From assembly GCF_004010195.1 (NCBI RefSeq), contig NC_057760.1, positions 3,800,901-3,863,690 of the forward strand: 62,790 bases of DNA, in the 5' to 3' direction. Of this stretch, positions 4,258 to 58,977 are shown piece by piece. The notes beneath the pieces were generated by a model. That model searched no databases. It was not told the origin of the DNA and saw nothing but the letters and a program-made list of their open reading frames with translations. The translations under genes were made by a program, and so were the position numbers. Positions within the stretch are counted from its first letter, which is position 1. Each line of letters starts with the position of its first letter. Source of the DNA: Chiloscyllium plagiosum. Taxonomy: Eukaryota.

Positions 4258-4671
4258 CTGCAACAGAAATTTTAGAAAACATTTACGTATGATTTAATGA
4301 AAAGAAAGTAAATATCTCCAACAGTTGTTTGTAGCCTATACTTTTTCACTGCACCAACAATACCAAATACCTGTTATAAATACCCTGTTGTTACCAATAA
4401 CTGTACCCTCTTCCCTACACATTATTAATACTTCCAAATCCAACTATCACAATATTTCAATCTAGCTACCAAATGCTAATATGCCCTGCTTTACAGTACA
4501 GAACGTGAGTACTGTTGTAAGGAAAAATATGGTTTTGAAGCTTTTTGTTATGCTTTCATTGGACAGGAAGCAAGAGTTTCACATTTCAAAGGGGACAACG
4601 TATTATACTGCGTGATGATGCACAGGACCCAGTCCTCTGCAAACAGTATGTCGAGAAATTGAGACATTTTC

Positions 4672-6000: not shown

Positions 6001-6189
6001 TCAGCAACAGAAATGTTGTGACATGCAATGGAAAGGACTGAGAGATGTAGAACAGATGTGATTGCAGGATTTAGATTCTCCATCTCTCAGCCAATGCATT
6101 TTCTCTGTCACACTACAGCAAGTCTTCTACTGAATATACAGTTCCTGCAGCGATGAATAATTCATTCAATATGTTATCTCTGTAACAGT

Positions 6190-6610
6190 AGATGATGTGG
6201 AGGTGCCAGTGTTGGATTGGGGTGGACAAAGTTACGGTCGGGATACAGACAGACTCTAACCTCACACCTTTAATGCATTGTCTGAGGTGAGATGTCACCT
6301 TTTTTTATCTACCGATCAAACCTTAAGTTATCTTTGGACTGTGACTTGAAAGAAGTTCTGGGATTTATATATTAATCAATCGAAATCTGCAACCCCACTC
6401 TAAGTGATTAAAGACTGAACAGCAATCTAGGTTTGGTCAATACATCATATCAGTTGGATGATACCTTGATCTTTTACTATAAGTTCTGTGTTCTATGATC
6501 CTGCCCCACTAGCTACCTGACAAAGGAGCAGTGTTCTGAAAGCTTGTACTTTCAAATAAACCTGTTGGACTATAACCCGTTGTTGTGTGATTTTTAACTT
6601 TGTCACAGTA
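6190..6610. mobile_element. PLE-derived short element, second family (GAAAGCTA core; related copies near 12400, 21270, 24590, 25555, 30220, 38325)
   Basis: Recurrent motif aggagcagcgctccgaaagctagtgcttccaattaaacctgttggactataacctggtgttgtgtgatttttaac. Confidence 0.7.
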
Positions 6611-7684
6611 CAGACAGCCATCTACTGAATTTATAGTTCCAGCACCAATGGATCTTCTCTTTATATTTGTGCACCATAAATATTTTGGGAAGTCAGGTGT
6701 TCCTCTTTGCACATAATCAAGAATAAAGCCTAAACCTGGTAGTCATGGATATGAACAGAGTGACAGAGAGTTCAGATTGAATATAGGTTGTGAATTGAAA
6801 ACCAGATCTAGGATACCTGCTTGGTGATCAACTCAATTCAACACGTTTTAAACCAGAATTTAAATTTTATCAGGATGAAAGCCTTTTATATCTTCTGGCT
6901 AAAAGGTGCTAACAGGAAATTAGTTTGGGAAACCTAGTTCCTGTGGGGCTTCTGCTTATTGCACATGGTTGTAAACAACTTGACTTCTTTCTGAGACACT
7001 GCAAGAGTAGCTACTGCGAGAAAAGAAGCTCAAAAAAGTTGTTTGGTTGCCAAATCAATTATTACTCAGTTGGAAAGCAACACTGACTATTGCCTCATTT
7101 CCTAGAGGACACTGGAAGCTCAGTCACTGAGTATGTTCAAGACAGCAATCAAAGCATTTCTAGATACTACTGACAAGAAGTATGGGAATGGCATTGAGGT
7201 AGGTGATTGGCTGTGATCTCAAATAGCAGAGCAGGGGTGAGAGGCTGAATAGCCTAATCCTGCTCCTATTTCCTATGTCCCTTTCCCCTTTCTATTTTGT
7301 CTTGAAGGTACTAACTCATGTTGAAGCTGTCTCCTTTTTTCATGTGAATACTTGGGACATTGGGTGTTGACAGGATATTTAACTGTTGCAAGCTAAGCCT
7401 AATCCAGACAATGCACCAACTGTTTTTAGCAGAGATTATTAGACTTTTAAAAAAGCTTCCCAAATTTTCCTCTTCCCATTCCATGGACAGTAATGCTTGT
7501 TTTACTAACTCTGCTGCTACCAAACTTAAAAGAACTCAGTACTGCCCCCTGGAATAGATATTTACTCATTGAGATGGGGGTTGTGTGGAAATGGGGTTGG
7601 GGAGGATGGGGGTGTTGCATGAAAGTTGGGATGTGTTGTTAGTTAGTATATAAGCGTTTTAAGTATTGTCATTAATACACTCAC

Positions 7685-10062: not shown

Positions 10063-11299
10063 CTGAAAAGACAAAAAAAAAAGCAAAGATAATTGTGAGT
10101 GAAAAACAAAAACAGAAGTTTCTGGAAAAGCTGAGCAAACCTGGCCGTCGCCGTGAAAAGATATCAGAGTTAACAGTTCAGGTGTGGTTACCCTTCCTCA
10201 GAACTGGTGGATTCATAATTGAGAGTGAACTGGGTGCAAGTTAAGAAAAAGAGTGGGTTTTGGTTTGTGTCGATCACCTAGTCCTCAAGTGAAAGCTGCT
10301 CTTGCACTTGACTGCTGCACTGACCCCCCACCCCAACACCCCACAACTTGTTTTGTTGATTAATAGCTTTTATAGCAGTCAAGTCTGATACCCTACACTG
10401 TTAAGTAGCACGCTGGTACCAACATATCAAAGTATCATATCAAAGATGCTCTTCCTCAGATGAGATATTAAGTCGAGGCTCATCTGCAAATTCCATTCAT
10501 CCCAAAGATCTAATGCACAAGTAAAGGTAATTGTCTGTCAAAATGCTTCCCTTGAATACTAGGACCAATTTAGCTGGTCATTTATTTCAATGTTGACATG
10601 TGTATTTGTCATGTTTGAGAGTAACACTGTTCCTTCGCATAGAACTCAAGCTCTCTGTCTCTCCCCTACACCACACATTGGGAAACAAAGGGACAATACT
10701 GCAATGCCAGGATTCTCAGTGTTACATTTTGTGAGCATAGTTATAGAGGTTCACTCATTTCATCATTGAAGCTCTTTGGTTAGATAGTGCATTCAAGTGT
10801 TTTCTGAGGTTTTATTATTGACCCGAGAAAGGACATATTTGTTAAAAATGTACTTTACTTGTTATTGACCAGCCCTGTTTTTTCATGAACAGATTCAAGA
10901 AAACATTTCTTTGAAATTGAACAGACAACCTTTTTATAATGGGGAGGACTGATCACTTTATATGGGGTAATAATTAGGGATAGTCTTGTTGATTAAAAGG
11001 CCATACTCCACAAATGAAAACATTCATCATTAATATCTCAATATAATTTAAAAGATGAGATTCATTAGGGGAGAGAAATTAGTATTGGTCATCTCCAATT
11101 CAGACTTATGCTGAACCTGTTGACTTTCACTTCAGGAGTTGAAGGTAATATTACATTTGGTGGAAATCTTTGCTTTCTTTTAAAATCTTATTTTGCATTA
11201 ACTAAAAGTTGATATTCAGATTCTCTCATAGAAATAAGGACCAGTTATTTTTTTCTTTTCAGGATAATACTTAGCTTTGCATTTATACTCTTTGTATGA

Positions 11300-37820: not shown

Positions 37821-38772
37821 TAGCAGTAAGGAGCAGACCATTAGGCCCCTTGATACCTGATAAGATCATAACTGATCTGATTGTGGTCTCAAGGTCACCT
37901 GAATTGGGAATTTATGTCAACTCAAGCCTTGAAAATATTCTTTGACCTTGCTCTCCTTGACTAACAACTCTCTAAGGAAAATAAATCTCCATCTTAAATT
38001 TGAAGCCCCTTTATTTTTAAATTGTGTCCTCTGGTATCTCCATCAGGAACTCACCTTGCCAATCCCATTAGCATTGATGTGTTTCAATAAGAGCATCCCT
38101 CAATCTTCTGTCCTCAATCTCCAAACAAAACAATCTCCACTGGGAAATTAAACTCAAGATCTTTCTAGTGAGATTAATCCAGAAATTCCCACATCTGCAG
38201 TAGAGGGTTTCAACTGAACATGTTTCACATCACTGCTTGCAATGTTGTATCACAAAATGATTGCAATTCTGATGTACGTAATTTTGGAACATTTTAGCTT
38301 TCTCCATATTAGATTTGATGTGTGTGCTGGTGTTGGATTTAGGTGGACTACATCCAAATTCACACCACACCAGTAGCTCGACAGGTTTATTTGAAATCAC
38401 AAGCTTTCGTAGCAATGCTCATTTGTGCGATTTCAAATAAACCTGTTGGACTATAACCTGGTGTCGTGTGACTTCTGACCTTTACCAGATTTCTGAACTA
38501 GAACACCTTCAATAATATTCTTTCACAGATTAAAATTTATGAAACCAAAATAACTCCTGAAGAATGAATTTAAAACATTGTGTTTTGCTTTAGAAATCTA
38601 AGATAATCCAAATAAATGCTCCTGAGACTTGCTTGTCACTTTATTTCTGAGACAGATAATCAACCCGTTGGACTTGTTTCCTTCCCCACCAATTCTTCCT
38701 TTGTTTAAATGCTGCTATTATCTCCTTCAGGTTGATTGGCAATGTTACAGAATTGAAGAAGCTACTCTAACT

Positions 38773-38847
38773 GACCATCTGGTGCGGGATGAGGTGCACT
38801 GTTGTCTCATTACCTTCCAATATTGCACTCGTCCCGGCCTCCTGGTC
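38773..38847 (+). ncRNA. MIR92B: pre-miR-92b hairpin (mature 3p 38821-38842)
   Basis: TATTGCACTCGTCCCGGCCTCC at 38821-38842 equals mature miR-92b-3p. The 5p arm GGTGCGGGATGAGGTGCACTGTTG pairs with it, with basal stem GACCA/TGGTC. Lies between the MUC1-like gene and THBS3, as in human. Confidence 0.95.
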
Positions 38848-38913
38848 TGGCTGGATTGCCACGCTGGGTGGTAACTGCTGTGATCAGATATGGCCCACCA
38901 GCACGCAGGATTC

Positions 38914-38998
38914 CTTTCATTCTAAGGTTGGGAGGGCTGTAATTTGCATTGAGTTTTTTCTTAAAGGCATTGCACTCATCCCGGCCAGAGTCTGAGAG
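38914..38998 (+). ncRNA. Second miR-92/25-family pre-miRNA hairpin (predicted 3p CATTGCACTCATCCCGGCCAGA, 38968-38989)
   Basis: Same seed (ATTGCAC). 5p arm GGTTGGGA...TGTAAT pairs with ATTGCA...TCCCGGCC, closed by TCT/AGA with basal stem CTTTCA/TGAGAG. About 65 nt downstream of miR-92b. Confidence 0.8.
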
Positions 38999-39889
38999 GG
39001 TTGCACAGCTCAGGACCATGTCGCTTTAACTGGAAGATGCTTAATGGACTCTCTTCTTGTCCATGAAGAACTCCACAACTGGCCTGGTGTGTCCTCTTGC
39101 CTCATCCAGCAGATCAATAAGGAGACAAGATACACGGGCTGGGACCCCACCTAACAACTTAAATATTCACTCCCACCCACCATCGATACACAGTGGCAGC
39201 AGTATGGATCATCAACAAGATGCACTTGAGCAACTTCCCCAGAGTTCTCTGACAGCACCTTCCTAACCTGTGACCTCTACTATGTAGAAACAAAAGAGCA
39301 ATAGATACATCAAACATCCCCACCTACAAGTTCTCCTCCAAGTCACACACCATCCTGATTTGAAATTAGATTGCATTTTGTTTACTGTTGCTGGGTCAAA
39401 GTCCTGGATTCCCCTTCGTTAACAGCACTGTGCATGTCCCGGTGTTACATGGACTGCAGTGACACAGGGAGGCAGCTGAACCTCACTTTCTCATGGGCAA
39501 TTAATGATGGAAAATAAAGCTGGCCCACCCAGTATGGTCTTATGCTAGCATGGGACATGGCCAGTATTTGTCACTCATCCCTAAATGCCCATGAAGTCAA
39601 TAGTTTGCTAGGTCACTTTAGAGGGTAGTTAAGCATATCACAACGTTTGAAGTCAGACAAAGGCCAGACCAGGTAAGGATGTCAGATTTCTTTCCCTAAA
39701 GGACATTAATGAACTGGATGGCATTTTATGACAATCTACAGTGGTCATAGGGCTTCCATCAGACCAACTTTTAATTCCAGATGTTTTTTAAACCAAATTC
39801 AAATTTCACTAATACGCCGAGAAATGTTGCCAGAACAGAAATGCTTTGCTTCCAGATGATATACTGAAGGGCAACATGTCGACAAATAA

Positions 39890-42057: not shown

Positions 42058-42122
42058 TCAGCGTGCTCCCATCTGGAGTTGCAGCAACTTCCGAAATGGC
42101 TCAAAGTCATCAGGAATTGTGT
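42058..42122 (-). CDS. THBS3: Thrombospondin-3 last coding exon (D-TIPDDFEPFRKLLQLQMGAR*)
   Basis: ctcacag| acceptor, TGA at 42058-42060. The FEPFR tail matches THBS3 (DTVPEDFEPFRRQLL) rather than THBS4 or COMP. Confidence 0.93.
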
Positions 42123-42434
42123 CTGTGAGACAAACAAGTAGAGGAAGGAAAGATCAAGTGAGCTGAATAATCAATCTGGCATATTTCTCCTCTGTGCCCA
42201 GCCAAGCATTTCCATCACTATTAACTTGAAGTTAGTATTTTGTGGGCTATGGGCAGCATTACCAACACGTTCCTTCCAAGCCGCTCACCATTCCTGACTT
42301 AGAATTGTAACACCATTCCTTCAGTACCACGAGCTCAAAATCCTGGAATTCCCTCCATAACAGCATTGTGGGTCTACCTACAACAAATGGACTGTGATGG
42401 CTCAAGAAGGCAGATCACCATCACCTTGTCAAGG

Positions 42435-42880
42435 GCTGTTATTGCTTGGGCTGCAGAGTTTTAGCTATGAAGTCAGATTGGATAGTCTGGGGTGGTTTTC
42501 CATGGAACAGAGGAGACTGATTGAGATGTTTAAAATTGTGGGGGGGCATAATCAGGATAGACAGGAAGAAATGTTTCTTCCTAGTGAGGGGACCAATGAT
42601 CAGGTGGCATAGATTTAAAATAAAGGGTAGGAGGTTGAGAAAGGATGTGAAGATATGTTTTTTTCATCCAGAGGGTGAGGAGTATCTGGAACCCACTGCT
42701 GGTAAGGGTGGTAGAGGCGAAACCCTCAACATTTAAGGAAAATTTACACAGCAATGCTAAGGCATGCAAGACCATTGGCAAAGTGCTAGAAAATGGGACT
42801 AGAACAGTTTGGTGGCTGTTCTGATTGGCAAGACTCAATGGGCCTAAAGGCTTTTGTTCTGTGCTGTAGACCTCTATGAC
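42435..42880 (+). mobile_element. Degraded CR1 3' fragment
   Basis: SYEVRLDSLGWFSMEQRR-type remnants and a CR1 tail. Confidence 0.7.
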
Positions 42881-42958
42881 TAGGGATAGGCATTAAGTGC
42901 TGATCCAGCCAGCAATTCCCACATTTTAAGTGAATGAATAAAAAAAAGCTGTTCTCAC

Positions 42959-43098
42959 CATTACACCTGTAGCGCAGATTGGACCAAATAATATTCTCCT
43001 GGGAAAAGCAGAAGACACCAAGGCGTCCTCCACGCATGGTTGTATCAATTGTAACGCCTGAATCTGCCACAAGATTAGGTCCTTCATACAATTTGACT
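42959..43098 (-). CDS. THBS3: Thrombospondin-3 penultimate coding exon ([46 protein letters not shown])
   Basis: 140 nt, GT-AG, phase 2 to 1. Confidence 0.96.
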
Positions 43099-43919
43099 CT
43101 GAAAGGAGAATGAAGACACAGCTTTATAACTAAATGAAATGTTTATTGTTTGTACCCCTTAAAATGGCACAGTGTGTTTGTAATCACTAACATTGTCTGC
43201 CTAATGAAATAGAGCTGGAAATATATAGCAGATTATTCAGTCTGCAAGCTGGGCTATGGACCTTTGGCTGTGTAGCCTTCAGACACCCATGCTGTGAAAC
43301 AAAATGGAGGACGTGGATCTGAAATCTTGGCTCAATGTTAGGTCAGAAGGCAGCAGAGTAATCAGATGCTGAGCTCAAAATTTGTGTGAAACTACACTGA
43401 AACAGTGGAGGGGAAGAGAGATCAGTCAATTAAAGTCGGAGTGGGTGTGTTCCAAGAAGGGGGTGATGGAGGAGGGTGATCGAGATCACATGCAGACACA
43501 AAGACATTGACAAATATAGAAAGTGCTAGAGAAACTGAGCAGGTTTGGCTGCAGCTATTGAGACAAAAACAGAGTTAATTTCTCATATTGCATATGACTC
43601 TTAATACTTAAGACATTAAGCTCTACAGACAGATACTCAATATTTAATCTTGAGAAACATATTTCACTCATACCTTCTGAGGCAAGTGGTTAGGGTATGG
43701 AATGTCTGCCCAGGAGTTTAGTGAAGGCAAGTTCAATCACAAAGAAATTGAATACGCACCTGAAGGGACAAAATGTATGAGGTGATAGGGAAAGAATGGG
43801 ACTGCTACTTTATCCTACAAACCTATGACAAGGGAAATCACACTCCAGAACTGTACACACTAACCAAGAGAGGGATGAATCGAGTAAAAGCCAGAGTTCA
43901 CAGAAAACTAGACAATATT

Positions 43920-44328
43920 TCTGTTTTCCCTGGAGCGTCAGAGGCTGAGGGGTGACCTTATAGAGGTTTACAAAATTATGAGGGGCATGGATAGGATAAA
44001 TAGACAAAGTCTTTTCCCTGGGATCAGGAAGTCCAGAACTAGAGGGCGTAGGTTTAGGGTGAGAGGGGAAAGATATAAAAGAGACCTAAGGAGCAACTTT
44101 TTCACGCAGAGGGTGGTACGTGTATGGAATGAGCTGCCAGAGGATGTGGTGGAGGCTGGTACAATTGCAACATTTAAGAGGCATTTGGATGGGTATATGA
44201 ATAGGAAGGGTTTGGAGGGATATGGGCCGGGTGCTGACAGGTGGGACTAGATTAGTTGGGATATCTGGTCGGCATGGATGGGTTGGACCGAAGGGTCTGT
44301 TTCCATGCTTTACATCTCTATGACTCTA
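43920..44328 (+). mobile_element. CR1 LINE 3' end
   Basis: RLRGDLIEVYKIMRGMDR...NFFTQRVVRVWNELP, ending in a ctatgactctat tail. Confidence 0.9.
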
Positions 44329-45553
44329 TTTGGAACTCAACTTTGCACTACCAATATTTCTCTCTAACTGCACTGTGTGGCTGTGTGTCTGTCTCCTAAG
44401 TTGGCCTCTCTTTGACCCTTTACCCTACCTCCTTTCTCAGTCTCTAAATACACTGTATGTGCCTCTGACGATTGTATGTGTTTCTTGGTCTGTGTGTAAG
44501 TATGTTTCTCAATCTCTCACTGTGCTTCCCTATCTTCTCACTATCTGTGCCTCTCTGCCTTTAACTGCACGTTTCAGCAAACTGAATCTTTTTCTGAGTT
44601 TGCTTTCAGGATCTGAAATCGGACAGAGTTCTAACAACAGAACAAATGGAATTGCTGGAAGTTGGAGTCATGCTGAACTGATGATGCAGAACTCAGATTC
44701 CAAACAGTAACTTCAGCCTGTCAGCCATTGTCTCCAGATTTACATTTCAATAGAAATGGGGCCCTAACTGACCTGCCAGGATCCTGTTGCTATGGGAATG
44801 TTTCTTGGTTACCAGAGGAAAAGGATGTCTTTTGTGCTTGGAGAACGTGTTCAGCATTCACTAGAATGACAAAACACAACTCCAAAATCAAACCTCCAAT
44901 CAGCCAACATATGGGCTGTCTCTACTCATTGGGACTGATTCCAAGGTACAAGATTACCAGGCAAACCTTTGTCAAACCTTCAAAATCCCTAAACCATCCA
45001 TGACTTCCACAGATTCTTTAATAGCCATCACTGAAAATTCAAATCTATTGGGAATACGCAAAGGATAACTGACCAATTCTTCTGGGAAGAAATAGGGAAA
45101 CTTTGACTCGGGGTTGGGGAGAGTGGGGAGATTTCTGATGACCATAACTCTCCTATGGCCAGGTGCTGGCAGGTGGGACTAGATTGGGTTGGGATCACTG
45201 ATCAGCATGGATGGAAGGGTCTGTTTCCGTGCTGGACATCTCTGTGACGAAACTGGCTAACAAAAAGACAAAGGCAGGGTTCAGTATGCCACCTGTATGT
45301 ACCCTGGAATTCTCTCCCTCAACCTCTCCACTCCCCTCCTTTAAGATGCTCCTTCAAATCTACCTCTCATCTGTTCCAATGTTTGTGACACAGTGTCAAA
45401 TTCTATTTACGATTTCACAGTGAACCATTTTCGACATTTCACTCTATAATAGCACTATTTAAATTAAAGGTATATTTAATAAGGGTTCAGTGTGTGTTTG
45501 TGAATGGGACTTAGACTTACTGGTGTCTAATGAACATGTGATTGGATGCTCAC

Positions 45554-45726
45554 CTGATATAGCCGACTTGTGGCCTGTGCACCAGCTGCCATCTGTAGGA
45601 TGTCTTGTCTTTCCATCCCACATCACGGGGATCTTTCCATAGCAGCGTGACCTGGTCTTGGGTGGTGCCAGTATTCCACAGTGCATTCCTGAGGTACTCT
45701 CCTGGGCCTGTCTTTGATTTCACGGC
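45554..45726 (-). CDS. THBS3: Thrombospondin-3 exon ([17 protein letters not shown]...RPQVGYI-R)
   Basis: 173 nt, GT-AG, phase 0 to 2. TSP C-terminal domain. Confidence 0.96.
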
Positions 45727-46169
45727 CTGATTGGGATCCAAAGTGAAGGACAAGTTAGTAATCTGAATGATGCATCATCGCCATAAACATAATATTTAAA
45801 TTAATTATCCAGACCATTGCTTAGGCTAATTGGTGGATCACACAGTATGTGTGTGTGAACGTCACACTTTTGAGCCAGTGCTTCTAATGGTGTGGGGAGC
45901 TGAATGGATTGATCCCTTTCCTGTATTTCTGCACCAAAGTGGTCATGTTCTGTGTTTATATGTAGACAAGCTATTTATTTTGATCCCAGAACTGTCTTTC
46001 TCTTTGACACAAAGCAGGGCTATTATACTGTAAGTGATCGCTTTGCTGACATGGGGGACATCTGGAGAGGAGCAGGTGAGCCAGATTTGTTGGGGGCAAG
46101 GCCAGAGGGAGCTGTGAGGAGAGAGTGAGTAAATGTAAGGTTCTTTGGTGATGCCAAAAGAAGGATAAT

Positions 46170-46450
46170 CGGTGGCTCAGTGGTTAGCACTGCTGCCTCA
46201 GTGCCAGGGACCTGGGTTTAATTCCCACCTCGGGCAACTGTCTGTGTGGCGTTTGCACATTCTCCCCGTGTCTGCGTGGGTTTCCCCTCACAGTCCAAAG
46301 ATATGCAGGTCAGGTGAATTTGCCATGCTAAATTGCCCATAGTGTTAGGTAGATTAGTCAGGAGTAAATGTAGGGGAATGGGTCGCTCTTTGGAGGGTCG
46401 GTGTGGACTTGTTGGGCCGAAGGGCCTGTTTCCACATTGTAGGGAATCTA
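46170..46450 (+). mobile_element. V-SINE (HE1-like)
   Basis: ggtggctcagtggttagcactgctgcctca...gggccgaagggcctgtttccacattgtagggaatcta. Confidence 0.88.
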
Positions 46451-46819
46451 ATAAAAAAAGCCTGAGGGTACAGGGCGATGAGGGGAAGGGCAGGGGGCTG
46501 ATTTAATGTACAAGGAGGATGCAGACTGGGATGGCCCACCAAGGATTCAGCAGCATTGGCAGTCACCCATGTACCTGGCTGTCTGTGGTTAAGAACCTGA
46601 AAGAGGGAACAAAGCTGAAGAGGGTCTTTGTTTACTGTGGCTCCACCAGCAATGTGTAGTCTGAAGAATTTCAGTCTCAATAATTTGACAGCAGTCTGCA
46701 GCAACTCAATGTGTGTCCGTGAGTCGAAACACAGCTCCTTATTAGGGGAGTTCTGGGTACACAGTTAGGTCAGGTACACTATGTGCCTCAAATTATCAGC
46801 TTGGAGAATAATCACTATT

Positions 46820-47691
<872 letters not shown>

Positions 47692-48095
47692 TCAACATTA
47701 TCTTCTTACAACAGCATCAACCACTCAGTTTGAATGATGTTGCACCAAACAACAGCTGATGAAAACATAATCAAAAATCTCCTGTTAATTTTATCGATCT
47801 TTGCTTTTATAAAGGAGCAATGTTAAATTCCATGTATATTGGGGCCGAATCTAACAAAACTTCAAACACTCTCAGCACTCGTGAGATACGCTATAAAGTT
47901 CCCTCAAGGTTGTCCACATCGACCTGTCAGGATGTGGGAAACATCTGGATTTCTAATGTAGAAGTTTTCAAGATTAGTTCAATAATAAAACCCTGATGAT
48001 TGTGGTAAATGAAACCATTCTGTTTTCAGTTAGTCTAGTTCAGGTTGTGTTGCTGACATCACATTTCACTGATTGAACAAATCACACCAACTTAC

Positions 48096-48144
48096 CGACA
48101 GCTAATCCAGGGTCACTGTTCATAGTCTGAACAATCTCCATTCC
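48096..48144 (-). CDS. THBS3: Thrombospondin-3 exon (GMEIVQTMNSDPGLAV-G)
   Basis: 49-nt exon with acag| acceptor and G|gtaagt donor. Highly conserved TSP C-terminal motif. Confidence 0.95.
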
Positions 48145-49149
48145 CTGTCGCACAAACACAAAAATTATTTATGAAACACCAGGACCTGCTGAGCATGTTG
48201 AAGGAAGGTGAGGAGCACGCCAAGGTCAGGAATACGTGAGAGGCTGGAGCGGGATGACTTTGTCTTACCAATGTTTAACCTGAGGGCTTTGTAGTTGGTC
48301 CTTATCAGGGTACCTTTGCAAACTGAAACCTTTGCATAATGTTACCTAACGGGTAGCAAGCTGGTCAATGAGAAAGAGGTCAGGAAAACAAGAAAACATT
48401 TCCAAAGAGCCAACAACAAGCAACAAGTGGAGAACACATTGTTGAAGATACTGTGTCTGTATTTGGATAAATCAGTAAAATTAGATAGCTCCATGGAAAA
48501 GGGAGACAGCTGCTGAAGAATGAAGTCAAATCATGTAAGTCAATGTTGCCAAGAGATTGAGAAGTAATAATGATCCATATTTGTAGCTGAAGAGAATTTT
48601 GTTCATTACCTTTGTTAGGATTTTGAATATTATGGGACAGTTCCAGAGATTTATAGCTGAGTTGTGGAAAAGATGTCATCATGGCTTTTGGAGATCTTCA
48701 TCGTGTTTTTGTGAGTGGTGAGATGTTGACCAGGTTGGGTTAGATTTGGGTTGTACTGATAGTGATAGACAGCAGGAGTCCAGAGACAGTTATTCAGAAC
48801 TGCCAAGCATCTTCCAACTGGCCTCTGACAACTGCACGTTGCTCAGTGAGTGCATCATAACAACATGGTGATGGGCCAACGTACCCTTAATCATGAATGC
48901 AGTCAGAATGATCCTTCTATGTGCTGAGTGAATCCAACTCCACCAACATAAAGAGGAGGGATGACTTCTGGCAGAAGCTTTAAATGGTTGGGGAGAGGGG
49001 GTGCACAGGTCAGGGGATATAATAAGCTTCAGGCAGAAGGATGGGGTTCAGTGCTGGGGCTGATATTGGGGAGATAGAGCGTGGTTCAGAAATTTTGGTG
49101 GATTTTGAGCAGGGATCAAATGGCATGTGGGATGAGGTTGGATGTGTGA

Positions 49150-49400
49150 CAGCAGGATAAATACCTGAGGAGGGGGGTCAACGTGACCCTGGGGGGGAAC
49201 AGCAGGAAAAATACGTGAGGAGTGGGGTCAGTCAGAGTGACCCTGGGGGTGAACAGCAGGATAAATACCTGAGGAATGGGGTCAGTCAGAGTGACCCTGG
49301 GGGTGAACAGCCGGATAAATACCTGAGGAACGGGGTCAGTCAGAGTGACCCTGGGAGTGAACAGCAGGATAAATACCTGAGGAATGGGGTCAGTCAGAGT
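49150..49400 (+). repeat. 54-bp tandem repeat, about 4.5 copies
   Basis: Unit cagcaggataaatacctgaggaatggggtcagtcagagtgaccctgggggtgaa. Confidence 0.9.
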
Positions 49401-50790
49401 TAATGTGGAGCTGAATGTATAAGTGGAGCTCTGGAGGTGACATTACAACTCAAAAAGTTGTGTTACCTTGGCTCCTCAGGAACCTGGTTTTCAGACTGAG
49501 TGAATCGTGTCTGCAGGGAGACTAGGTGCTTAATTTTTATAGTTGTTGTCTGCTAGGAATAGAGTGGGAGTAAGAGTCCTGAGTTTGGTGACTAGTGTTT
49601 CAGTTAGTGCAGTCAGTTCCTGAATTGTTGTCTGTAGTTAATAAAGTTGAGTGGCATGAGAACTTTCCCCCACAGAATGCTCTTCCTGCAATGTGTGGGA
49701 AATCAGGGACATTACCAGTGTCTATGAAATATGCAGGAAATGTGTTCACCTGCAGATGGACTCACTATGGAGCATCCCTTAGGATGAGAGAATGTCATGA
49801 GTTGCTCACGACAACAGAAACAGCTGCACAGAAAAGAGTTGGGTGATCATGAGGAAGGTGAGTTAAGTGTTGACGGGCAGTGTAGGAGTCCCATGTGGCC
49901 ATTCCCCTGTCAAACTGGTATGTACTGTTGGCGGGGGATGGCCTGTCAGGGAAAGCAGCAGTCACATAGGTGACACCACGATTGCTGCTGTTGTACAGCA
50001 TGGAGGGCTGAAGTGCAAGTGGACAGTAGTGACAGGGGACTCTATAGAAAAGGCATTTCTCTGGCTGCAAGTGACACTCCCAGGACAGTATATTTCCTCC
50101 CTGGGGTCAGGGTCACGCATGCATCTGAACACGAACAGGGGTGGGAAAGTAGCAGAGGTTGTGGTCCATATTGGTACCAAAGACATCAGCAGAGAGAGAG
50201 AGAGAGAGATGTGACCCTGCAAAGGGAATTCTGGGAGTTTGGTGAAAAGCAGTACCTCTATGATTGCGATGTCAGGATTACTTCCCATGCTATGTGCCAG
50301 TATAGCTAGATAGTGAGTACAGTTAAATACATGGCTAAAGAACTGGTGTAGGAGTTTCAAGTACATGGATCATTGGGAGGTCTTCTGGGCCAGGTGGGAC
50401 CTGTCCAAGAAGAACAGGCTGCACTTAAACTGTACGGGCACCAAAATCCTGGCAGGGAGCTTTGCTAGTGCCAGTCAGGAGAGTTTAAATTTGTGTGACC
50501 CTGGGGAAGGGGTGGGGGGAAGGAGCTGTCGGTCAACAAGTCAAGTGACCAAGGAGGAATCAAAGACTGAGAGCAGTCACACTAAGAGTAAGGGCAGACA
50601 GAGAGGGGATACCGAACATGGCAGGACTGATGGTCTGAGGTGCATTTGTTTTAAAATGAGGTGTATGACAGATAAGGCAGTTGAACTTGGAATAATATAT
50701 ATAACAAGGATATAGCTATTACAGAGACTTAGTAGAGAGAAGAACAAAGACTGGCAGCTTAATGTTCCAGGATTTGGATGTTAGCGGAAT
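49150..50790 (+). mobile_element. Degraded CR1 LINE 5' end (5' tandem repeat, ORF1 esterase remnants, start of ORF2)
   Basis: VVTGDS, VVVHIGTKD, DHWEVFWARWDL and RLHLN resemble the ORF1 at 61.5-62.4 kb. Confidence 0.75.
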
Positions 50791-51559
50791 ATGGACCATG
50801 TAAAGGCAAAAGTCTTTTAGTTTAGAAAGGCATCATGTAATGGCACAGTCTTCGTGGGCTGAATGGCCTGTTGGCGTGTTGTAGTAATCTTTGTCCAAGC
50901 ACAGAGGGGTTAAAGGCTGTTTATTTTGAGGAGCAAGTTTGAAAGATAAGAGCAATAGGTAAAGAGAGGGAACCATTTGCAACATCAGCTGAACTGGGAC
51001 TGAATGGGAGGTTGAGTGAGTAGCGATTTAGTATGAATAAAGCCAAACAGCAGAAAATAGGTGTTATGGATAAAATGAGCTTGGTAAAGGTATGGGGGAG
51101 ATAGGAAAGATAGAGATTTATTCAGGTAAAGAAGAGTTGATTTTAGATGGAGGTGTTCTTTATCAAAGTGGAAGCAGAACCTAAGGGACAGGGAGTGAAG
51201 AGGCAATTTTAATCTAAGCTACATGCTGGGTGACCACAGAATTAGGTTTACAAGCAGCATTCCACTGAGCCCATGGGTTCCCCAACTGGGGGATTAGGTT
51301 GGTATCCCTCAGAAACAATACTGTCTTACCTTCTACATCGTTCAGACCTACATCAAGTCAATAATGACCATGTTTCATTGATACGGCTATCAGTTATAAT
51401 AAATTAAATGAACCAATTATTTTAAGGAGTTCAGGAAGTTTGTACACTGGCTGTGTGCTTGCCTTCTCCCTATGCTCACCCTCTGTCCACCGTCACCCAC
51501 TCAAAGGCTGAGTTTTTCAAGCAATGTGGAATTTGAGTTGTTTCAATAAGTTGCTTGTA

Positions 51560-51746
51560 CTTTGTTAACATGTCGAGAGTGTGGTGCTGGAAAAACACAG
51601 CAGGTCAGGCAGCAGCCAAGGAGCAGGAGAATAAACGTTTTGGGCATACGCCCTTCATCAGGAATATATGGTGCTTTTCTAGCATCACACTCTCGACTTT
51701 GATCTCCAGCATCTGTTGTCCTCACTTTCTCCTTTGTTAACATGTC
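51560..51746. mobile_element. PLE-derived fold-back short element with 15-bp TSD
   Basis: TSD ctttgttaacatgtc at 51560-51574 and 51732-51746. Confidence 0.85.
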
Positions 51747-52294
51747 ATTACTGATCAGAGTTTGGATTCACTGCTCAAAATGTGGACAGAAAGTTGTTTC
51801 ACAATCATCATCTAGTCACTAAAACACTGAATAAACACAAATACTGAACACCCCCTATAGACAGTGGTGTTGTACATGAAACAATCATTATTTACAAAAA
51901 GGAAATAAGCCATTCAAGACAACCAGTCCGTCTGTGTTTAACCTTCCCTCATGTGAACAGTTCTAATCACATCTACGTGTTTTGTTCCCTAACTTTCAAC
52001 CACCAAATCAGTTCAGTCTACTCAAATCTGGAATGTTGACAGTAATTACCTCAAACACTGACCCTGGGTGTGAATTGCATCGCCTCACAACTGTAAACAT
52101 TTCCCCTGACCTCTACTCTTTCAGATATTTGTTGCCCCTCATTCCAAAAAACAGTTGGAAACAAGTTATTTCTATTCACTGTTTCTGTTATGGTTAAATG
52201 GTCCTGTCACATCACTCTGTAATCTATGTTCTAGCTAAACAAAACACAATTTCTGATCTTTGCACAGTCATTTGTTTAGAATTAGAATTTTTTA

Positions 52295-52597
52295 AAATTA
52301 GGATTAGAATCCCTACAGTGTGCAAACAGGCCCTTCAGCCCAACAATTCCACACTGACCCTCCAAAGAGTAACCCACCCAGACACGTTCCCTGACATTAC
52401 CCCTGACAAATAACCTACACTATTGGGAATTTAGCATCTTTGGACTGTGGGAGGAAACCAGAGCACCCGGAGGAAATCCACGCAGACGCGGGGAGAATGT
52501 ACAAACTCCACACAGTCAGTCGCCCTGAGGCTGGAATCAAACCCGGGACCCTGGTGCTGTGAGGCAGCAGCGCTAACCACTGAGCCTCTTTGCCACT
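52295..52597 (-). mobile_element. V-SINE (HE1-like)
   Basis: Same family as 46170-46450, reverse orientation. Confidence 0.85.
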
Positions 52598-52812
52598 CCA
52601 CGCCTCAGTAGATCTGTACTGAACGCTCTTTGCTGCTTTAATGCACCTCCCATAGTTTGTGGTGCTCCATATCGTGCAGTATCTTGACTGAGATCTGATA
52701 AAGGTTTTCTATTGGCTTGGCTTTAACAGGTTAGAGAAAGAGATTTGAAAGAAACATGCAAGAGGGACTGAGATTTAATACAAATAAAGAGATGCAGTAA
52801 GAATAAATTCAC

Positions 52813-52991
52813 CTGGTTGAGGACTACCCAATTTGGGTCAATCTGTGCATCACCCTCAGGATCCAGAACGACAGTCTGATAGGCTCGGAAATCAGTAAGA
52901 GTGACCTCTGCACTCTCAGGACAGACATCAAACTGGTCAAAGACAGCATCATTATCAAAGTCATTTTCGCAAGCATCACCAATCCCGTTAT
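52813..52991 (-). CDS. THBS3: Thrombospondin-3 exon (last type 3 repeat and start of C-terminal lectin-like domain)
   Basis: [14 protein letters not shown]...[37 protein letters not shown], 179 nt, GT-AG, phases consistent. Confidence 0.96.
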
Positions 52992-53229
52992 CTAGATAAA
53001 GGACAAGCCACACATCAGAATGAAACAATGGCACTGACTCATCTGACCCAGCTACTGGGAATCAACTCCCCCTCCTGCTCCAAAAATTCATGCATTCCTC
53101 GAACCTCCACACCATCACTGAACCTCAACTCCACCTCTCAATTAACCCTCATCCTCAAACCCTAGCGCTTTATGAAATATACATCAGAAACTACCACTTC
53201 ATGGTGAGAAAGTTGGTTTGAGACACAGT

Positions 53230-55513
53230 AGCATAGTAATAGAAGCAGGAGTAGGCCATTTTGCCCATTGAGCTTGCTCTAGCATTCATTAAGATCATGG
53301 CTGATCTATCCATCATCTCAGCTCCTCCTATCTGCATTATCCCCATAACCCTTAATTCCCTACCATGCAAAAACCCATCCAACTGTGTCTTGAATATATT
53401 TAATGAGGCTGCCTCTACTGCTTCCTTGGGCAGAGAGTTCCATCGATTCACTCCTCTCTGGAAAAAACAATTCCTCCTCATCTCTGTCCTAAATCTATTA
53501 CCCTATAATCTTGAGGCCATGTCCCCTAGTTCTGGTTTCGCCAGCAGAAACAACTTGTCTATCTATATCTTATCTATCCCTTTCATAATTTTATATGTTT
53601 CTATAAGATCCCCTGTCATTTATCTAAATTCTAGAGAGTACAGTCCCAGGAGACTCAACCTCCCCTCATAGGATAACCCCCTCATTTCCGGAATCAATCT
53701 AGCGAACTTCCTCTGCACCACTTCCAAAGCCAGTATATCCTCCTTCAAGGAAGGAGACCAGAATTGCGCACAATACTCTAAGTGTGGCCTCACCAACACC
53801 TTGTACAATTGCAGCAGAACCTCCCTGCTCTTAAATTCAATCCTATGACAGTGAAAGCCAATATTCCGTTTGCCTTCCTGATTACCCATCACACCTGCAA
53901 ATCAACTTTTAGCGATTCATGTACAAGCACTCCTAAGTCTTTCTGCACAATAGCATGCTGCAATCTTTCACCTCTTTAAATAATGCTCTGACCTATTATT
54001 TTTACTTACAAAGTGAATAACCTCACATTTACCAACATTGTATTCCATCTGCCAGACTCTTGCCCACTCTTTTAACCTATCTAAATCTCTCTGCAGACCC
54101 TCCACTTCCTCTGCACAGTTTGCCTTTCCACTCAATTTAGTGTCATCAGCAAACTTGGATATGTTACACTCGGTCTCCTCTTCCAAATCAATTTTATTCA
54201 TATCATGAACAGTTGCAGGCCCAACACTGACCCCTGTGACACCCCACTCACCACTGATCTCCAAACAGAGAAACACCCATTTATCCCAGATCTCTGCTTG
54301 CTGTTGGTTAACCAGTTCCCTATCCATGCTAGTACATTCCCCACAGCCCCATGCATTCTTATCTTATGGATGAGTCTTTTATGTGGCACTTTATCGAACA
54401 CCTTCTGGAAATCCAAGTATACAACATCCACCTGTTCCCGTCCATCCAACGTGCTTGTTACGTCCTCAAAGAACTCCACTACGTTTGTCAAACACGACCT
54501 TCCCTTCCTGAATCCATGCTGTATCTGCCTGACGGAACCCTTTCCATTCAGATGTCTCACTATTTCTTCTTTAATGATAGCCTCCAGCATCTCCCCTATT
54601 ACAGATGTTAAGCGAACTGGCCGAGAGTTACCTGCCTTTTGCCTACACACCCCTTTTTAAACAGAAGTGTGACATCCGCTGTGTTCCAGTCCACTGGGAC
54701 CTGCCAGGAGTCCAGTGAATTTTGGTAAATTACCACTAACATATCTACTATAACTTCCTCCATTTCTTTCAGCACCCTGGAATGCATTCCATCGGGACCA
54801 GGGGATTTATCTACCTTGAGACCCTCAAGTTTGCTCAACACTACCCCTTTAGTGATAACAATTGAATTGAAGTCCTCACCTCCCATCATTTCTTTAACAT
54901 CATTCTTTGGCATGTTAGATACATCTTCCAGCGTGAAGACTGATACAAAATACTTATTCAAGGTCTAGCCATTTCAGCATTACCCATTCTCATCCTGCAA
55001 GGGACTTATGTCCACTTTAGCCACCCCTTTCTGTTTTATATTTTCATAAAAACCTTTCCTGCGTGTTTTTTTTTATATTCTGTGCTATGTTGCATTCATA
55101 ATCTAGCTTTCCTTTCTTTATTACTTGCATTGTGGCTCTTTGTTGCTTTTTAACGTTTTCCCAATCTTCCTGTTTTCCATTACTCTTGGCTACTTTGTCA
55201 GCCTGAGCTTTTAATCAGATGCCTCCCTTTATTTCTTCGGCTATCCAAGGCTGGCTCTTCCTACCTTTGCTATCCTTGTTTTTGACTGGATTATGCTTTC
55301 CTTGAGCACTGTGAAAATCTCTTTGAAAGTCCTCCACTGATCCTCACCATTCCACCATATAACCTTTGTTCCTGGTCAAACTTAGCCAACTCTTTCCTCA
55401 TCCCATTATAGTCTCCCTTGTTTAAGCATAACACCGTGGTTTCAGACGATACTATTTCACTCTCCATTTGTATCTGAAATTCGACCATATTGTGATCACT
55501 CTTTCCGAGAGTC
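53230..55513 (-). mobile_element. 5'-truncated CR1 LINE (end of endonuclease through RT to 3' end) in a THBS3 intron
   Basis: LGKSDHNMVEF, KSPGPDGMH, QHGFRKGRSCLTN, YLDFQKVFDKVPH, QGSVLG and KFADDTKL across frameshifted ORFs. Confidence 0.92.
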
Positions 55514-55519
55514 ACTAAC

Positions 55520-55713
55520 CATCAGAATCCTTCTGATTGGGGTTCACAATTAAGCGGCAATTATCAGGACCCGATGGCCCATAGTCAGGAACCCCATCAT
55601 TGTCATCATCATCATCACACTCATCGCCCAACCCGTCATTGTCAGAGTCCAACTGAGAGCTGTTAGGAGTTTCTGGACAATTGTCTTTGGAGTCCTGATG
55701 CCCATCGCCATCA
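55520..55713 (-). CDS. THBS3: Thrombospondin-3 exon (type 3 repeats [13 protein letters not shown]...PNQKDSD)
   Basis: ttgtag| acceptor, G|gttagt donor, 194 nt. [15 protein letters not shown] resembles THBS3 GIPDYVPPGPDNCRL. Confidence 0.95.
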
Positions 55714-55947
55714 CTACAACCCAAACCCAACAAAAAATAGTCATCATTTCACCATAATATACACAAGTAGTGTCAACAGCTCACCATCTCTCTCTGTCTC
55801 TCACTCACACACACACAGAGTCAATAACTCATCATTACACATACACACACGCACACACGGCCAATATCTTACCATTACATACACACACATGGTCAATATC
55901 TCACCATTACATACACACACACACATGCACACACTCAATATCTCTAT

Positions 55948-56885
55948 AGAACCCTGTTAGACCACACTTGGAAAATTGTGTTCAGTTCTGGTCACCTCAT
56001 TATAGGAAGGATGTGGAAGCTTTAGAGAGGTACAGAGGAGAGTTACCAGGATACTGCCTGGACTGGAGGGCATGTCTTATGAAGAAGGTTGAGGGAGCTA
56101 GGGCATTTCTCATTGAAGCAAATAAGGACAAGATATAGGTGTGCAAGATGGAAGGAGGCATAGACAGAGTGGATGGCCAGAGACTTTTTCCCAGGGCAGG
56201 AATATCTATCAGGAGGGTTAAGGTAATTGAGGAAGGTTTAAGGGAGATGTCAGAGGTCGGTTCTTTACACAGAGAGTGGTGGGTGTGTGGAATGCACTGC
56301 CATCAGGGTAATAAAGTCAGATACATTAGGGACATTTAAGCAACTTTTAGATGGGCCTGGAATGGAGAGGAAGTCGTACGAGGATAGGTTGAGAGTTCTC
56401 GGCCTTTTCTCGTTGGAACGGCGAAGGATGAGGGGTGACTTGATAGAGGTTTATAAGATGATCAGAGGAATAGATAGAGTAGACAGTCAGAAACTTTTCC
56501 CCCGGGTACAACAGAGTGTTACAAGGGGACATAAATATAAGGTGAAGGGTGGAAGGTATAGGGGAGATGTCAGGGGTAGGTTCTTTACCCAGAGAGTGGT
56601 GGGGGCATGGAATGCGCTGCCCGTGGGAGTGGTAGAGTCGGAATCATTGGCGACCTTTAAGCGGCATTTGGATAGGTACATGGATGGGTACTTAATCTAG
56701 GTTAGAAGTTCGGCACAACATCGTGGGCCGAAGGGCCTGTTCTGTGCTGTATTGTTCTATGTTCTATGTTCTATGGGCACATGACAAATAGTATAATGAA
56801 GGAAATGCAGATTAGTTTGATCTTAAGAGTACGATAAGAGGTCAACACAACATTGAGGGCTGAAGAGCCTATATTATTTTATGTA
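55948..56885 (+). mobile_element. Two nested CR1 3' ends; the inner copy (about 56352-56775) has a (TTCTATG)n tail
   Basis: Two RRMRGDLIEVYKM-type segments and a microsatellite tail at 56753-56776. Confidence 0.85.
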
Positions 56886-57069
56886 CTACCTCACCATTAC
56901 ATACACACAGACACAGACAATAATATCTTAGCATTACACAGACACACATACACAGACACAGACACACACATGGTCAATATCTCACCATTACTTACAGACA
57001 CATATACTCAATATCTCCATAACATACACAAACAATGATCACTATCTCACCATGACACACAATCACCAA

Positions 57070-57940
57070 TACAGAATTGGTTGTTTCCCCATTTTCCAGT
57101 TGGCATCCCATGACAATGGGCTTCCACAGGGGTCAGTGCTGACATCGCAAATGTTTACAATAAATATTAATGACTTGGAGAAAGGAAGTGAATACACTAT
57201 AACCAAATTTGCAGACAACAGTAAAATAGGTGGCAAGGAAGGTTGCAAGAGGGATAAAAACAATTTACAGAGCGATCGTGGGAGATTATTAAGTGGGCAA
57301 GACATTGGGAAATGGAATATAATGTGAGAAAATGCAAAGCTGTTATTGTGGAAGGGAGAACAAAAGAACAGGATATTATTTAAATGGATAAAAAACTGTA
57401 GAAAGCTGTAATATACAGGGACTTGGTGGTACATGTGCATGAAACACAGGAAGCCGTAACACAAGGGCAGCAGTATTCAGGAAGGCGAATGGAATGTTGA
57501 CCCTTATTTCAAGGGGGGTTGGAGTATACAGGTAGGAAAGTCTGACTGCAACTGTACAAGGTGAGATCACATCTCGAGGACTGTGAGCTGTCTTGATCTC
57601 CTTACTTAAGGAAAGATATTTCATTAGAGGTTGTTCAGAGAAGGGTCTCTCGGACGATTCCTGTTATGGAAGGATTGTCTTATGAGCAAAGATTGGAACA
57701 CTACTTGTCGGAGTTTAGAAGAATGAGAGGTGATCTCATTGAAAGATATCAGATTCTTTAGGGGCTTGACAGGGTCAATGCTGAGAGGGAGAGTCTAGGC
57801 TCAGAGGACACAGTCTCAGAATAAACGGGTGCCAATTTAAGATCGAGATGAGAAGGAATTTCTTCTATCAGTGGATTGAATATCTTTGGAACTCATTGCC
57901 ACAAAGAACTATAGGAGCACAGTTTTTCAGTATATTTAAG
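57070..57940 (+). mobile_element. Degraded CR1 LINE 3' fragment
   Basis: GLPQGSVL...ININDL...KFADNSKIGG followed by CR1 3' region. Confidence 0.8.
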
Positions 57941-58791
57941 ATGGAGGGCTTTTGCCCGAAACGTCTACTCACCTGCTCCTCAGATGCTGCCTGACCTGCT
58001 GTGCTTTTCCAGCACCACACTCTCAACACACAAACAGCAGTCAACAACTCATAACATGCACACAAAATGGCCAATGTTCATTATAGTGAAAAAATAAGTC
58101 AACATTCATTATGACGTACACAAAATGGATATGTATGCAAAAAAACAAGATATGGTCAGAGTAAAACAGATAATGATGGGAACAGAAATGACGCCTGAAT
58201 TGGAATTGCAGGAATGGTAGACAACAGATAACAGAAAAACAATGCTCAGAAGAGGGAAGAATGGATCAGTGGAGGTGTACAAGGAACAGGAATCATGTCA
58301 TGATGGTGGGTTGGAGAAGTGGAAGGATGAGAACAAGAGCAGACACCGGCAGGAAGCATGTGGGAGGTCGTGTAGGTGCAGTGGAAGATGTTAGGATGAA
58401 TAGTCATTAGGCCAGAAACTTAAAAGGTATTAATCAGAAAACTTTCTCCCTCCTCAACTACATCTGCTGCATGTGTACAGGGGCTGTAGATATTGGAGGA
58501 GGTTTCCTAATGAGATGTTCATTACGTGTATGCAACTTATTGTCTACATTAAATCCTGTGCAAGTGCATAATTGATAATCTTCTACCTAAGATTTTTGCT
58601 TCTATTAGGTAGAGACTATCAGCAGCACGTTCCACAAAAACAGGCATTACAATTAGGCTTCATCCTGAACTCTTTGATGACACAGACCAATGGATTTTGC
58701 AGAATGGATCACGAGACAAATGATCAGAAAATTGTTACTAATACTATTGGTACTATTGAAAATGGAATCATATTAAACTGCACAGCTAGGT

Positions 58792-58880
58792 AGTGTGTGT
58801 GTGTGTGTGCACTAGAGAGAGAGAGAGAGAGAGAGGTGTGTGAGTGAGTGAATGAGTGACAGAGAGAGAGAGAGACAGAG
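58792..58880. repeat. (TG)n and (AG)n microsatellites
   Basis: Directly visible dinucleotide runs just downstream of a THBS3 donor. Confidence 0.9.
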
Positions 58881-58924
58881 ACCATAAACTGGGAGTATGT
58901 GCAGTTTAAAAGACAGTGACATAC

Positions 58925-58977
58925 CTGTCTTGATTATTATCACAAGCATCGCCAACAAGATCATCATCTGCATCAGT
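58925..58977 (-). CDS. THBS3: Thrombospondin-3 exon (type 3 repeat TDADDDLVGDACDNNQD-S)
   Basis: ctatag| acceptor, AG|gtatgt donor, 53 nt. Calcium-binding type 3 repeat. Confidence 0.9.

What the first reader, a model, noticed from the sequence alone, without database searches (positions are those of the whole stretch)
38914..38998. Second miR-92/25-seed hairpin clustered with miR-92b
Seen: about 65 nt after pre-miR-92b is another well-paired hairpin. Its 3p arm CATTGCACTCATCCCGGCCAGA has the ATTGCAC seed, a 5' C and a 3' GA like miR-25 (CAUUGCACUUGUCUCGGUCUGA), but a miR-92b-like body. Established: human MIR92B is a singleton, while the paralogous clusters carry miR-363 or miR-25 as their final member. 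Inference: this is the missing miR-25/363-type paralogue of the miR-92b locus, retained in cartilaginous fish. That would support miR-92b being the remnant of a fourth whole-genome-duplication copy of the cluster.
Basis: partly seen in the sequence, partly recalled or inferred. Interest (0 to 1): 0.75.

Follow-up and report, generated by a model that had tools for sequence, protein, structure and literature searches.

The report
Extra miR-92 gene beside shark miR-92b
A shark genome carries a second, strongly conserved hairpin just downstream of the microRNA miR-92b, likely an extra and apparently uncatalogued member of the miR-92 family, but not the missing fourth genome-duplication copy first proposed, because that copy is already recorded elsewhere in sharks.

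Summary
The hairpin is real. It lies at 38914-38998 (+), 71 nt after mature miR-92b, between a MUC1-like gene and THBS3 in an elasmobranch. It folds on the + strand only (z -4.5) and has canonical miRNA geometry with the miR-92 seed. In a diverged relative both arms are unchanged while 21 of 71 spacer bases differ. It is very likely a working MIR-92 family microRNA, though no small-RNA reads were available.

MirGeneDB already records four genome-duplication copies of miR-17~92 in elephant shark. These include an intact six-gene fourth copy, lost in bony fish, with its own miR-92/miR-25-type tail, and all eight Mir-92 slots are filled. The new arm is closer to miR-92b (17/19) than to shark miR-25 reads (15/19). 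I therefore favour an old tandem duplicate of miR-92b (about 0.5) over a pre-duplication pair (about 0.25).

No catalogue row or paper naming it was found, but MirGeneDB sequences could not be seen. The scan had no look-alike of this locus on other DNA; it had noted the fourth cluster in another genome.

The parts
38914..38998 (+). Hairpin 2: MIR-92 family pri-miRNA stem-loop (the finding)
   Evidence: Fold z -4.47; Rfam mir-92 20.6 bits; 1 of 85 bases substituted plus one inserted A, both in the loop, in organism E; 0 of 85 in organism C
38968..38989 (+). Predicted guide (3p arm), seed ATTGCAC at 38969-38975
   Evidence: 19 of 22 bases paired; 17/22 identical to mature miR-92b; ends inferred by homology, no reads
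38925..38948 (+). Predicted star (5p) arm
   Evidence: 2-nt overhang rule applied to the fold; unchanged in organisms C and E
38949..38967 (+). Predicted Dicer-excised loop, 19 nt
   Evidence: holds the only two listed differences in organism E (38959, after 38962)
39006..39009 (+). CNNC motif (CAGC) at +17 after the predicted 3p end
   Evidence: its role as a Microprocessor enhancer is recalled knowledge
38770..38851 (+). Hairpin 1: miR-92b (guide 38821-38842, CNNC at 38859-38862)
   Evidence: Rfam mir-92 29.3 bits; fold z -4.05 for 38770-38860; the first 20-21 nt of the guide equal two top-100 small RNAs of epaulette shark cerebellum (PMC6048248 Table 2)
38843..38913 (+). Spacer between the hairpins, freely diverging
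   Evidence: 21 of 71 bases differ, plus one insertion, in organism E
42061..58977 (-). THBS3 3' exons (flanking gene; stop about 3.06 kb beyond hairpin 2, opposite strand)
   Evidence: Exon 55518-55748 is 100% identical to a bamboo-shark thrombospondin-3a and 91-97% to other elasmobranch THBS3; 8 exons mapped by tblastn
2509..10177 (-). MUC1-like mucin exons (flanking gene)
   Evidence: Pro/Thr/Ser repeat exon ending in a SEA start (Pfam SEA E 0.0023, below the curated cut-off); GSVIT and transmembrane segments; the MUC1 label is by recalled likeness and synteny

Best explanation
This is a conserved miR-92-seeded hairpin that likely works as a second canonical microRNA, predicted to be co-transcribed with miR-92b, and likely arose as an old tandem duplicate of miR-92b. 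Shown: the fold, the seed, the geometry, the gene neighbourhood and conservation of both arms. Inferred: one + strand primary transcript spans both hairpins; Drosha/DGCR8 crops a pre-miRNA of about 65 nt (38925-38989); Dicer cuts it; the 3p arm is loaded because its 5' end is the weaker duplex end. It would repress the same seed-matched mRNAs as miR-92a/92b/25, so it mainly adds dose. Its differences from miR-92b (nt 1, 11, 20-22) lie outside the seed and would affect loading and 3' pairing only. Confidence that it is a functional MIR-92 gene is about 0.9; that it arose by tandem duplication of miR-92b, about 0.5.
For: Strand-specific stable fold. Predicted pre-miRNA 65 nt, loop 19 nt, guide 19/22 paired, lower stem of about 11 nt, CNNC at +17 in both hairpins. 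Duplex end energies favour the 3p arm (-3.4 vs +1.7 kcal/mol, rough). Purifying-selection pattern in organism E: spacer 21/71 vs hairpin 1/85, Fisher p 1.4e-7; worst case, with all 5 unlisted differences placed in the hairpin, p 3.5e-4. Organism C: 0/85 vs 17/434 outside the two hairpins, P about 0.03. The neighbour's mature sequence is among the top 100 small RNAs in a related shark's cerebellum. For origin: 17/19 identity to miR-92b vs 15/19 to shark miR-25 reads and 16/19 to shark miR-92 reads (hand count). All eight P1/P2 slots are already filled in elephant shark.
Against: No small-RNA reads show the mature or star strand. Organism E rests on one contig of depth 4.3, and it was found because it shares words with the query, so species that lost the hairpin would not be listed. 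Conservation is shown only in unnamed relatives, not across chondrichthyans. No basal UG at -14/-13 in either hairpin. For origin: star arm, loop and upstream flanks of the two hairpins are no more alike than shuffles (p 0.40, 0.63, 0.91-0.98; downstream 30 nt p 0.024, one of 8 tests), so there is no trace of the duplication itself. The shared C at position 10 also appears in Rfam's ciona-mir-92 consensus and may be ancestral. Over 22 nt the arm ties at 17/22 with miR-92b and with the miR-25 sequence quoted in the finding.
Confidence: 0.7

Rival explanations
1. Very old pair: the miR-92b locus carried two MIR-92 hairpins before the second genome duplication (or is a relic of a pre-vertebrate tandem array). 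It is not a displaced piece of the miR-106b~25 cluster, and bony vertebrates lost the second hairpin.
For: No similarity between the two hairpins outside the guide implies deep divergence. The P1-then-P2 tandem layout recurs in shark and cyclostome clusters (consecutive rows Cmi P1b/P2b, Ebu P1e/P2e, Pma P1g/P2g). The 5' C is shared with miR-25 reads. MIR-92 is unplaced in the chordate ancestor (PMC8789304 passage). Peterson et al. report no shared post-2R tandem duplication among their 14 gnathostome lineages.
Against: The elephant shark list shows P1d with no Mir-92 neighbour (last row). No second hairpin is listed for gar, coelacanth or human. No tree could be built.
Confidence: 0.25
2. Duplicated tail of the d cluster: the event that put miR-92b (P1d) beside THBS3 also carried a copy of its P2 neighbour (miR-25), which later converged on miR-92b, for example by gene conversion.
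For: 5' C and a terminal GA as in the miR-25 sequence quoted in the finding; same order as P1/P2 pairs; MirGeneDB files P1d and P2d in one paralogon.
Against: It lacks the miR-25 letters at positions 14 and 18 seen in shark miR-25 reads. Rfam prefers mir-92 to the other clan member that overlapped (that family is not named). It needs two extra changes or a conversion.
Confidence: 0.12
3. One reading: miR-92b plus this hairpin are the remnant of the fourth whole-genome-duplication copy of miR-17~92.
For: Two MIR-92 hairpins in tandem, as at the 3' end of the b and c clusters.
Against: Four copies are already recorded in elephant shark (7/6/7/5 genes). The copy missing from bony fish is intact in chondrichthyans. 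A six-miRNA cluster with miR-92 and miR-25 reads lies on one elephant shark contig (PMC3789328). No miR-17/18/19 hairpin is in the window.
Confidence: 0.04
4. Not a working microRNA: a decayed copy, or a structure conserved for another reason such as a far THBS3 3' UTR element on the other strand.
For: No reads seen; Rfam score below the gathering cut-off; THBS3 ends about 3 kb away on the - strand.
Against: The - strand does not fold. Changes fall only in loop and spacer, the miRNA pattern. miR-92b also scores below the cut-off. AATAAA signals on the - strand at 41388, 40333 and 40326 lie before the hairpin.
Confidence: 0.08

Closest known systems
miR-92b (MirGeneDB Mir-92-P1d; this name mapping is recalled, consistent with the counts)
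   Same: Adjacent and co-oriented; same seed; 17/22 identity; same letters at positions 10, 14 and 18; CNNC at +17
   Different: 5' C instead of U; A at position 11; different last three bases; unrelated star, loop and flanks; no such neighbour listed for human, gar, coelacanth or elephant shark
miR-25 / shark Mir-92-P2b and P2d
   Same: Seed; 5' C; second place in a tandem MIR-92 pair
   Different: 15/19 identity to shark miR-25 reads; those reads map to a six-miRNA cluster on another contig; no miR-17/19 genes upstream here
MirGeneDB 2-alpha (b) Mir-17~92 cluster of chondrichthyans
   Same: Shark-retained MIR-92 genes absent from bony vertebrates
   Different: That cluster has six genes of three families and is the catalogued fourth copy; this locus has two MIR-92 hairpins between a MUC1-like gene and THBS3
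Rfam mir-92 RF00464 (clan CL00137)
   Same: Best Rfam match over the full model (positions 1-80)
   Different: 20.6 bits, under the gathering score of 47, so threshold-based Rfam annotation misses it (and miR-92b here)

Membership tests
Canonical animal microRNA (MirGeneDB-type criteria, recalled) | Single stem-loop with at least 16 guide bases paired and a loop of 8-40 nt | tested here: met
   19/22 paired, loop 19 nt, pre-miRNA 65 nt
Canonical animal microRNA (MirGeneDB-type criteria, recalled) | Reads from both arms with homogeneous 5' ends and 2-nt 3' overhangs | not testable with these tools
   No small-RNA library was listed; the poly(A) runs laid are no test
Canonical animal microRNA (MirGeneDB-type criteria, recalled) | Conservation order: arms above loop above flanks | tested here: met
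   Organism E: arms 0/46 changes, loop 2 changes, spacer 21/71
Canonical animal microRNA (MirGeneDB-type criteria, recalled) | Processing motifs (optional): basal UG, CNNC | tested here: inconclusive
   CNNC at +17 present; basal UG absent, as in miR-92b
MIR-92 family | 3p guide with seed AUUGCAC at nt 2-8 | tested here: met
   38969-38975; register by homology to miR-92b, whose 5' end matches published shark reads
MIR-92 family | Homology of the guide beyond the seed | tested here: met
   nt 10-22 vs miR-92b p 0.007 against shuffles; Rfam mir-92 E 0.0038
MIR-92 family | Rfam gathering score of 47 bits | tested here: not met
   20.6 bits; the undisputed miR-92b neighbour also fails at 29.3, so this cut-off does not define the family here
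Mir-92-P2 subgroup (miR-25 type) | miR-25 letters in the guide body (positions 14 and 18) | tested here: not met
   Hairpin 2 has C/C; shark miR-25 reads have T/T
Mir-92-P2 subgroup (miR-25 type) | Precursor phylogeny with P2 genes | not testable with these tools
   The published alignment was cut before the Mir-92 columns
2R copy of the Mir-17~92 cluster | Linked MIR-17 and MIR-19 genes | tested here: not met
   0 of 24 miR-17/18/19 seed matches in the window lie in a strong hairpin arm
2R copy of the Mir-17~92 cluster | A free slot among the four paralogons | tested here: not met
   a, b, c and d are all present in elephant shark

The most novel reading that the evidence does not exclude
Sharks keep a ninth MIR-92 gene that predates the second vertebrate genome duplication. 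The miR-92b locus would then be an ancient two-hairpin MIR-92 cluster in its own right, not a displaced member of the miR-106b~25 cluster, and the lone human MIR92B would be its remnant. MirGeneDB's eight-slot scheme for the family would need revising.
Probability: 0.25. Interest if true: 0.6.

Novelty: new member of a known kind. Interest (0 to 1): 0.4.

Why it matters
If expressed, it adds a gene to one of the best-studied vertebrate microRNA families in a lineage used to reconstruct the ancestral jawed vertebrate. Either origin is a small exception to the current account. A tandem duplicate shared across sharks would go against the reported rarity of lasting post-2R tandem miRNA duplications (PMC8789304, passage). 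A pre-2R pair would reopen where miR-92b came from. Because the seed is unchanged, little new regulatory function is expected, so the interest is mainly for microRNA and genome-duplication specialists.

Tried and rejected
No whole genome is held for this window, so copy number and the other clusters of this species were not checked.

Expression: no RNA holder listed. Poly(A) single-cell raw reads (about 2% and 6% of two runs) gave no read on either hairpin, and one run gave no read on the stretch at all; this is no test for a microRNA. Low-depth contigs from runs only guessed to be RNA cover 38664-38838, 38808-39069, 38815-39018 and 38975-39129; they were not used as expression evidence. The bamboo-shark liver table (PMC3789328, 5 of 5 TTGCAC rows seen) lacks this arm but also lacks miR-92b, and it kept only reads that mapped to the early elephant shark assembly, so the absence says nothing.

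Metagenome scan: 19 of 19 hits of the 18-mer match only 18-24 bases and none includes the hairpin; rejected as chance. Rfam plant-MIR hits at 37394-37567 are an inverted-repeat element. A recent duplication was rejected because flanks, loop and star are unrelated.

Literature: the arm's sequence was in the main text of no paper. The paralogue names Mir-92-P1b/P1d/P2a/P2b/P2d/P2e were in none. Searches returned 0 papers; two searches returned only unrelated ones. These searches do not cover supplements, databases or most subscription journals. Passages of PMC10927551, PMC11701709, PMC12553114, PMC8321539, PMC11848845 and bioRxiv 10.64898/2026.05.19.726197 held nothing on this locus.

Full report
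Observation. The sequence is as described. Mature miR-92b lies at 38821-38842 and a second arm with the same seed at 38968-38989, both on the + strand. The region 38914-38998 folds into one stem-loop of -33.5 kcal/mol (z -4.47, 0 of 200 shuffles), while its reverse complement folds no better than chance. Rfam's best match is mir-92 over the whole model, 20.6 bits, E 0.0038. That is under the gathering score, but so is miR-92b at 29.3 bits. Only 2 of 11 seed matches in the window are in strong hairpin arms, and they are these two. A 17/22 match to miR-92b within 300 nt is expected about 1e-4 times by chance; one other 17/22 match, without the seed, exists elsewhere in the window.

Anatomy. With the guide set at 38968 by homology, the 2-nt overhang rule gives a star at 38925-38948, a 19-nt loop, a 65-nt pre-miRNA, 19 of 22 guide bases paired, and a lower stem of about 11 nt. 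A CNNC motif sits at +17 in both hairpins; neither has a basal UG (the meaning of these motifs is recalled knowledge). The register is anchored by data for the neighbour. Two sequences equal to the first 20 and 21 bases of the miR-92b guide are among the 100 most abundant small RNAs in the brains of four species, including epaulette shark cerebellum (PMC6048248 Table 2; section 19 read). The duplex is weaker at the 3p arm's 5' end, which favours that arm as guide (rough estimate).

Neighbourhood. A thrombospondin gene on the - strand ends about 3 kb downstream. One exon is 100% identical to a bamboo-shark THBS3 and 91-97% to other elasmobranch THBS3 proteins, and eight exons map at 42061-58977. 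Upstream, on the - strand, is a mucin with a Pro/Thr/Ser exon, a SEA start, a GSVIT site and a transmembrane segment. The order MUC1 - MIR92B - THBS3 is that of human 1q22 (recalled), so hairpin 1 is the miR-92b orthologue and the window is from an elasmobranch. None of 24 miR-17, miR-18 or miR-19 seed matches in the window lies in a strong hairpin.

Conservation. I laid 8 of the 24 listed runs; 4 of them on 38600-39200. Organism C has 19 substitutions in 601 bases, of which 18 are listed: none in hairpin 2, one at the edge of hairpin 1, and 17 in the other 434 bases (P about 0.03). Organism E has one 225-nt contig over 38815-39018 with 27 differences, of which 22 are listed. Of these, 21 are in the 71-nt spacer and 1 is in the 85-nt hairpin, in the loop, with a one-base insertion also in the loop (Fisher p 1.4e-7). 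If the 5 unlisted differences were all in the hairpin, p is 3.5e-4. Organism B is identical over 38808-39069 and so uninformative; organism D covers only the last 24 bases of the hairpin. Caveats: the E contig has depth 4.3, runs were found by shared 31-mers so losers of the hairpin would not appear, and the organisms are unnamed, so the depth of conservation is unknown. Even so, both arms and the lower stem staying fixed against a spacer 30% diverged is the pattern expected of a microRNA under selection. No expression data bear on it (see Tried and rejected).

What is known. MirGeneDB 2.1 uses this very cluster as its example: four paralogous copies, with the 2-alpha copy wholly lost in bony fishes (PMC8728216, section 5 read in full). 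Peterson et al. count 7/6/7/5 genes in elephant shark and 7/0/6/4 in human (PMC8789304 SuppFile3). The version tracker lists eight Mir-92 genes for elephant shark and seven for catshark, with no P2d row. In the elephant shark sheet the b cluster fills six consecutive rows ending in P1b and P2b. The d cluster fills four rows ending in P2d, and P1d stands apart as the last row with no Mir-92 neighbour. Row order looks genomic for clusters but is not stated to be. Independently, bamboo-shark liver reads of miR-92 and miR-25 map to one elephant shark contig in a six-miRNA cluster (PMC3789328, table rows and passages); equating that with the b cluster is my inference. The mapping P1d = miR-92b, P2d = miR-25, P2c = miR-363, P2a = miR-367 is recalled; earlier scan notes agree on P2a. 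So the fourth copy exists and is not the miR-92b locus. MirGeneDB 3.0 added invertebrates and mammals only (abstract in listing). I could not see any MirGeneDB sequence or coordinate: the alignment was cut and the supplementary figures were not held. An existing entry under another name is therefore not excluded; I put that at about 1 in 4.

Origin. By hand count over the first 19 bases, the new arm matches miR-92b at 17, shark miR-92 reads at 16 and shark miR-25 reads at 15. It shares position 1 with miR-25, and positions 10, 14 and 18 with miR-92b. Over 22 bases it ties at 17 with miR-92b and with the miR-25 sequence quoted in the finding, but its 3' end is not defined by reads. Outside the guide the two hairpins are unrelated (star p 0.40, loop 0.63, upstream flanks 0.91 and 0.98, downstream 30 nt 0.024, downstream 60 nt 0.13), so the split is old. 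A copy of miR-25 made after the second duplication should carry the miR-25 letters at 14 and 18, and this one does not. The simplest reading is an old tandem duplicate of miR-92b (about 0.5). A pair older than the second duplication remains open (about 0.25), because the shared letters may be ancestral: Rfam's ciona-mir-92 consensus also has C at position 10. A converted miR-25 copy (0.12), a non-functional element (0.08) and the fourth-copy remnant (0.04) follow.

How it likely works. One + strand transcript carries both hairpins, Microprocessor and Dicer release a 22-nt 3p guide, and the guide represses the same seed-matched mRNAs as the rest of the family. The 5' C may lower Argonaute loading (recalled preference for U or A), and the changes at 11 and 20-22 would alter only 3' pairing. 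All of these steps are inferred.

Verdict. The hairpin is real and very likely a functional MIR-92 gene, apparently missing from the curated list. The proposed genome-duplication story is contradicted by published counts. It is a new member of a known kind, interest 0.4.

Noticed in passing
window 2509-10177 (-): MUC1-like mucin with a single 844-codon open Pro/Thr/Ser repeat exon, SEA start, GSVIT cleavage-type site and transmembrane segment: the MUC1-MIR92B-THBS3 order (human order recalled) appears in a shark.
   Followed up: partly
window 26001-26600: The only CpG-island-like patch between the mucin and the hairpins (GC 0.52-0.55, observed/expected 0.7); a candidate promoter for the mucin (-) and/or the miR-92b transcript (+).
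   Followed up: no
window 37410-37552: 69-nt inverted repeat (91% complementary), with related copies at 40371-40478 and 40864-40937, that draws spurious Rfam plant-miRNA hits up to 72 bits; looks like a shark interspersed repeat.
   Followed up: partly
window 38859-38864, organism E contig: The CNNC motif at +17 after miR-92b is substituted in organism E, but a CNNC then reads at +19; possibly a shifted motif or an alignment offset.
   Followed up: no
window 11300-11716, 13724-14200, 26997-27464, 61928-62389 (+): Retroelement remnants: reverse transcriptase, two ALKBH8_N-type pieces and a GDSL-esterase piece.
   Followed up: no
MirGeneDB tracker, catshark sheet: Catshark has rows for Mir-17-P1d and Mir-92-P1d but none for Mir-17-P4d, Mir-19-P2d or Mir-92-P2d, so its d cluster is either reduced or incompletely assembled.
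   Followed up: no
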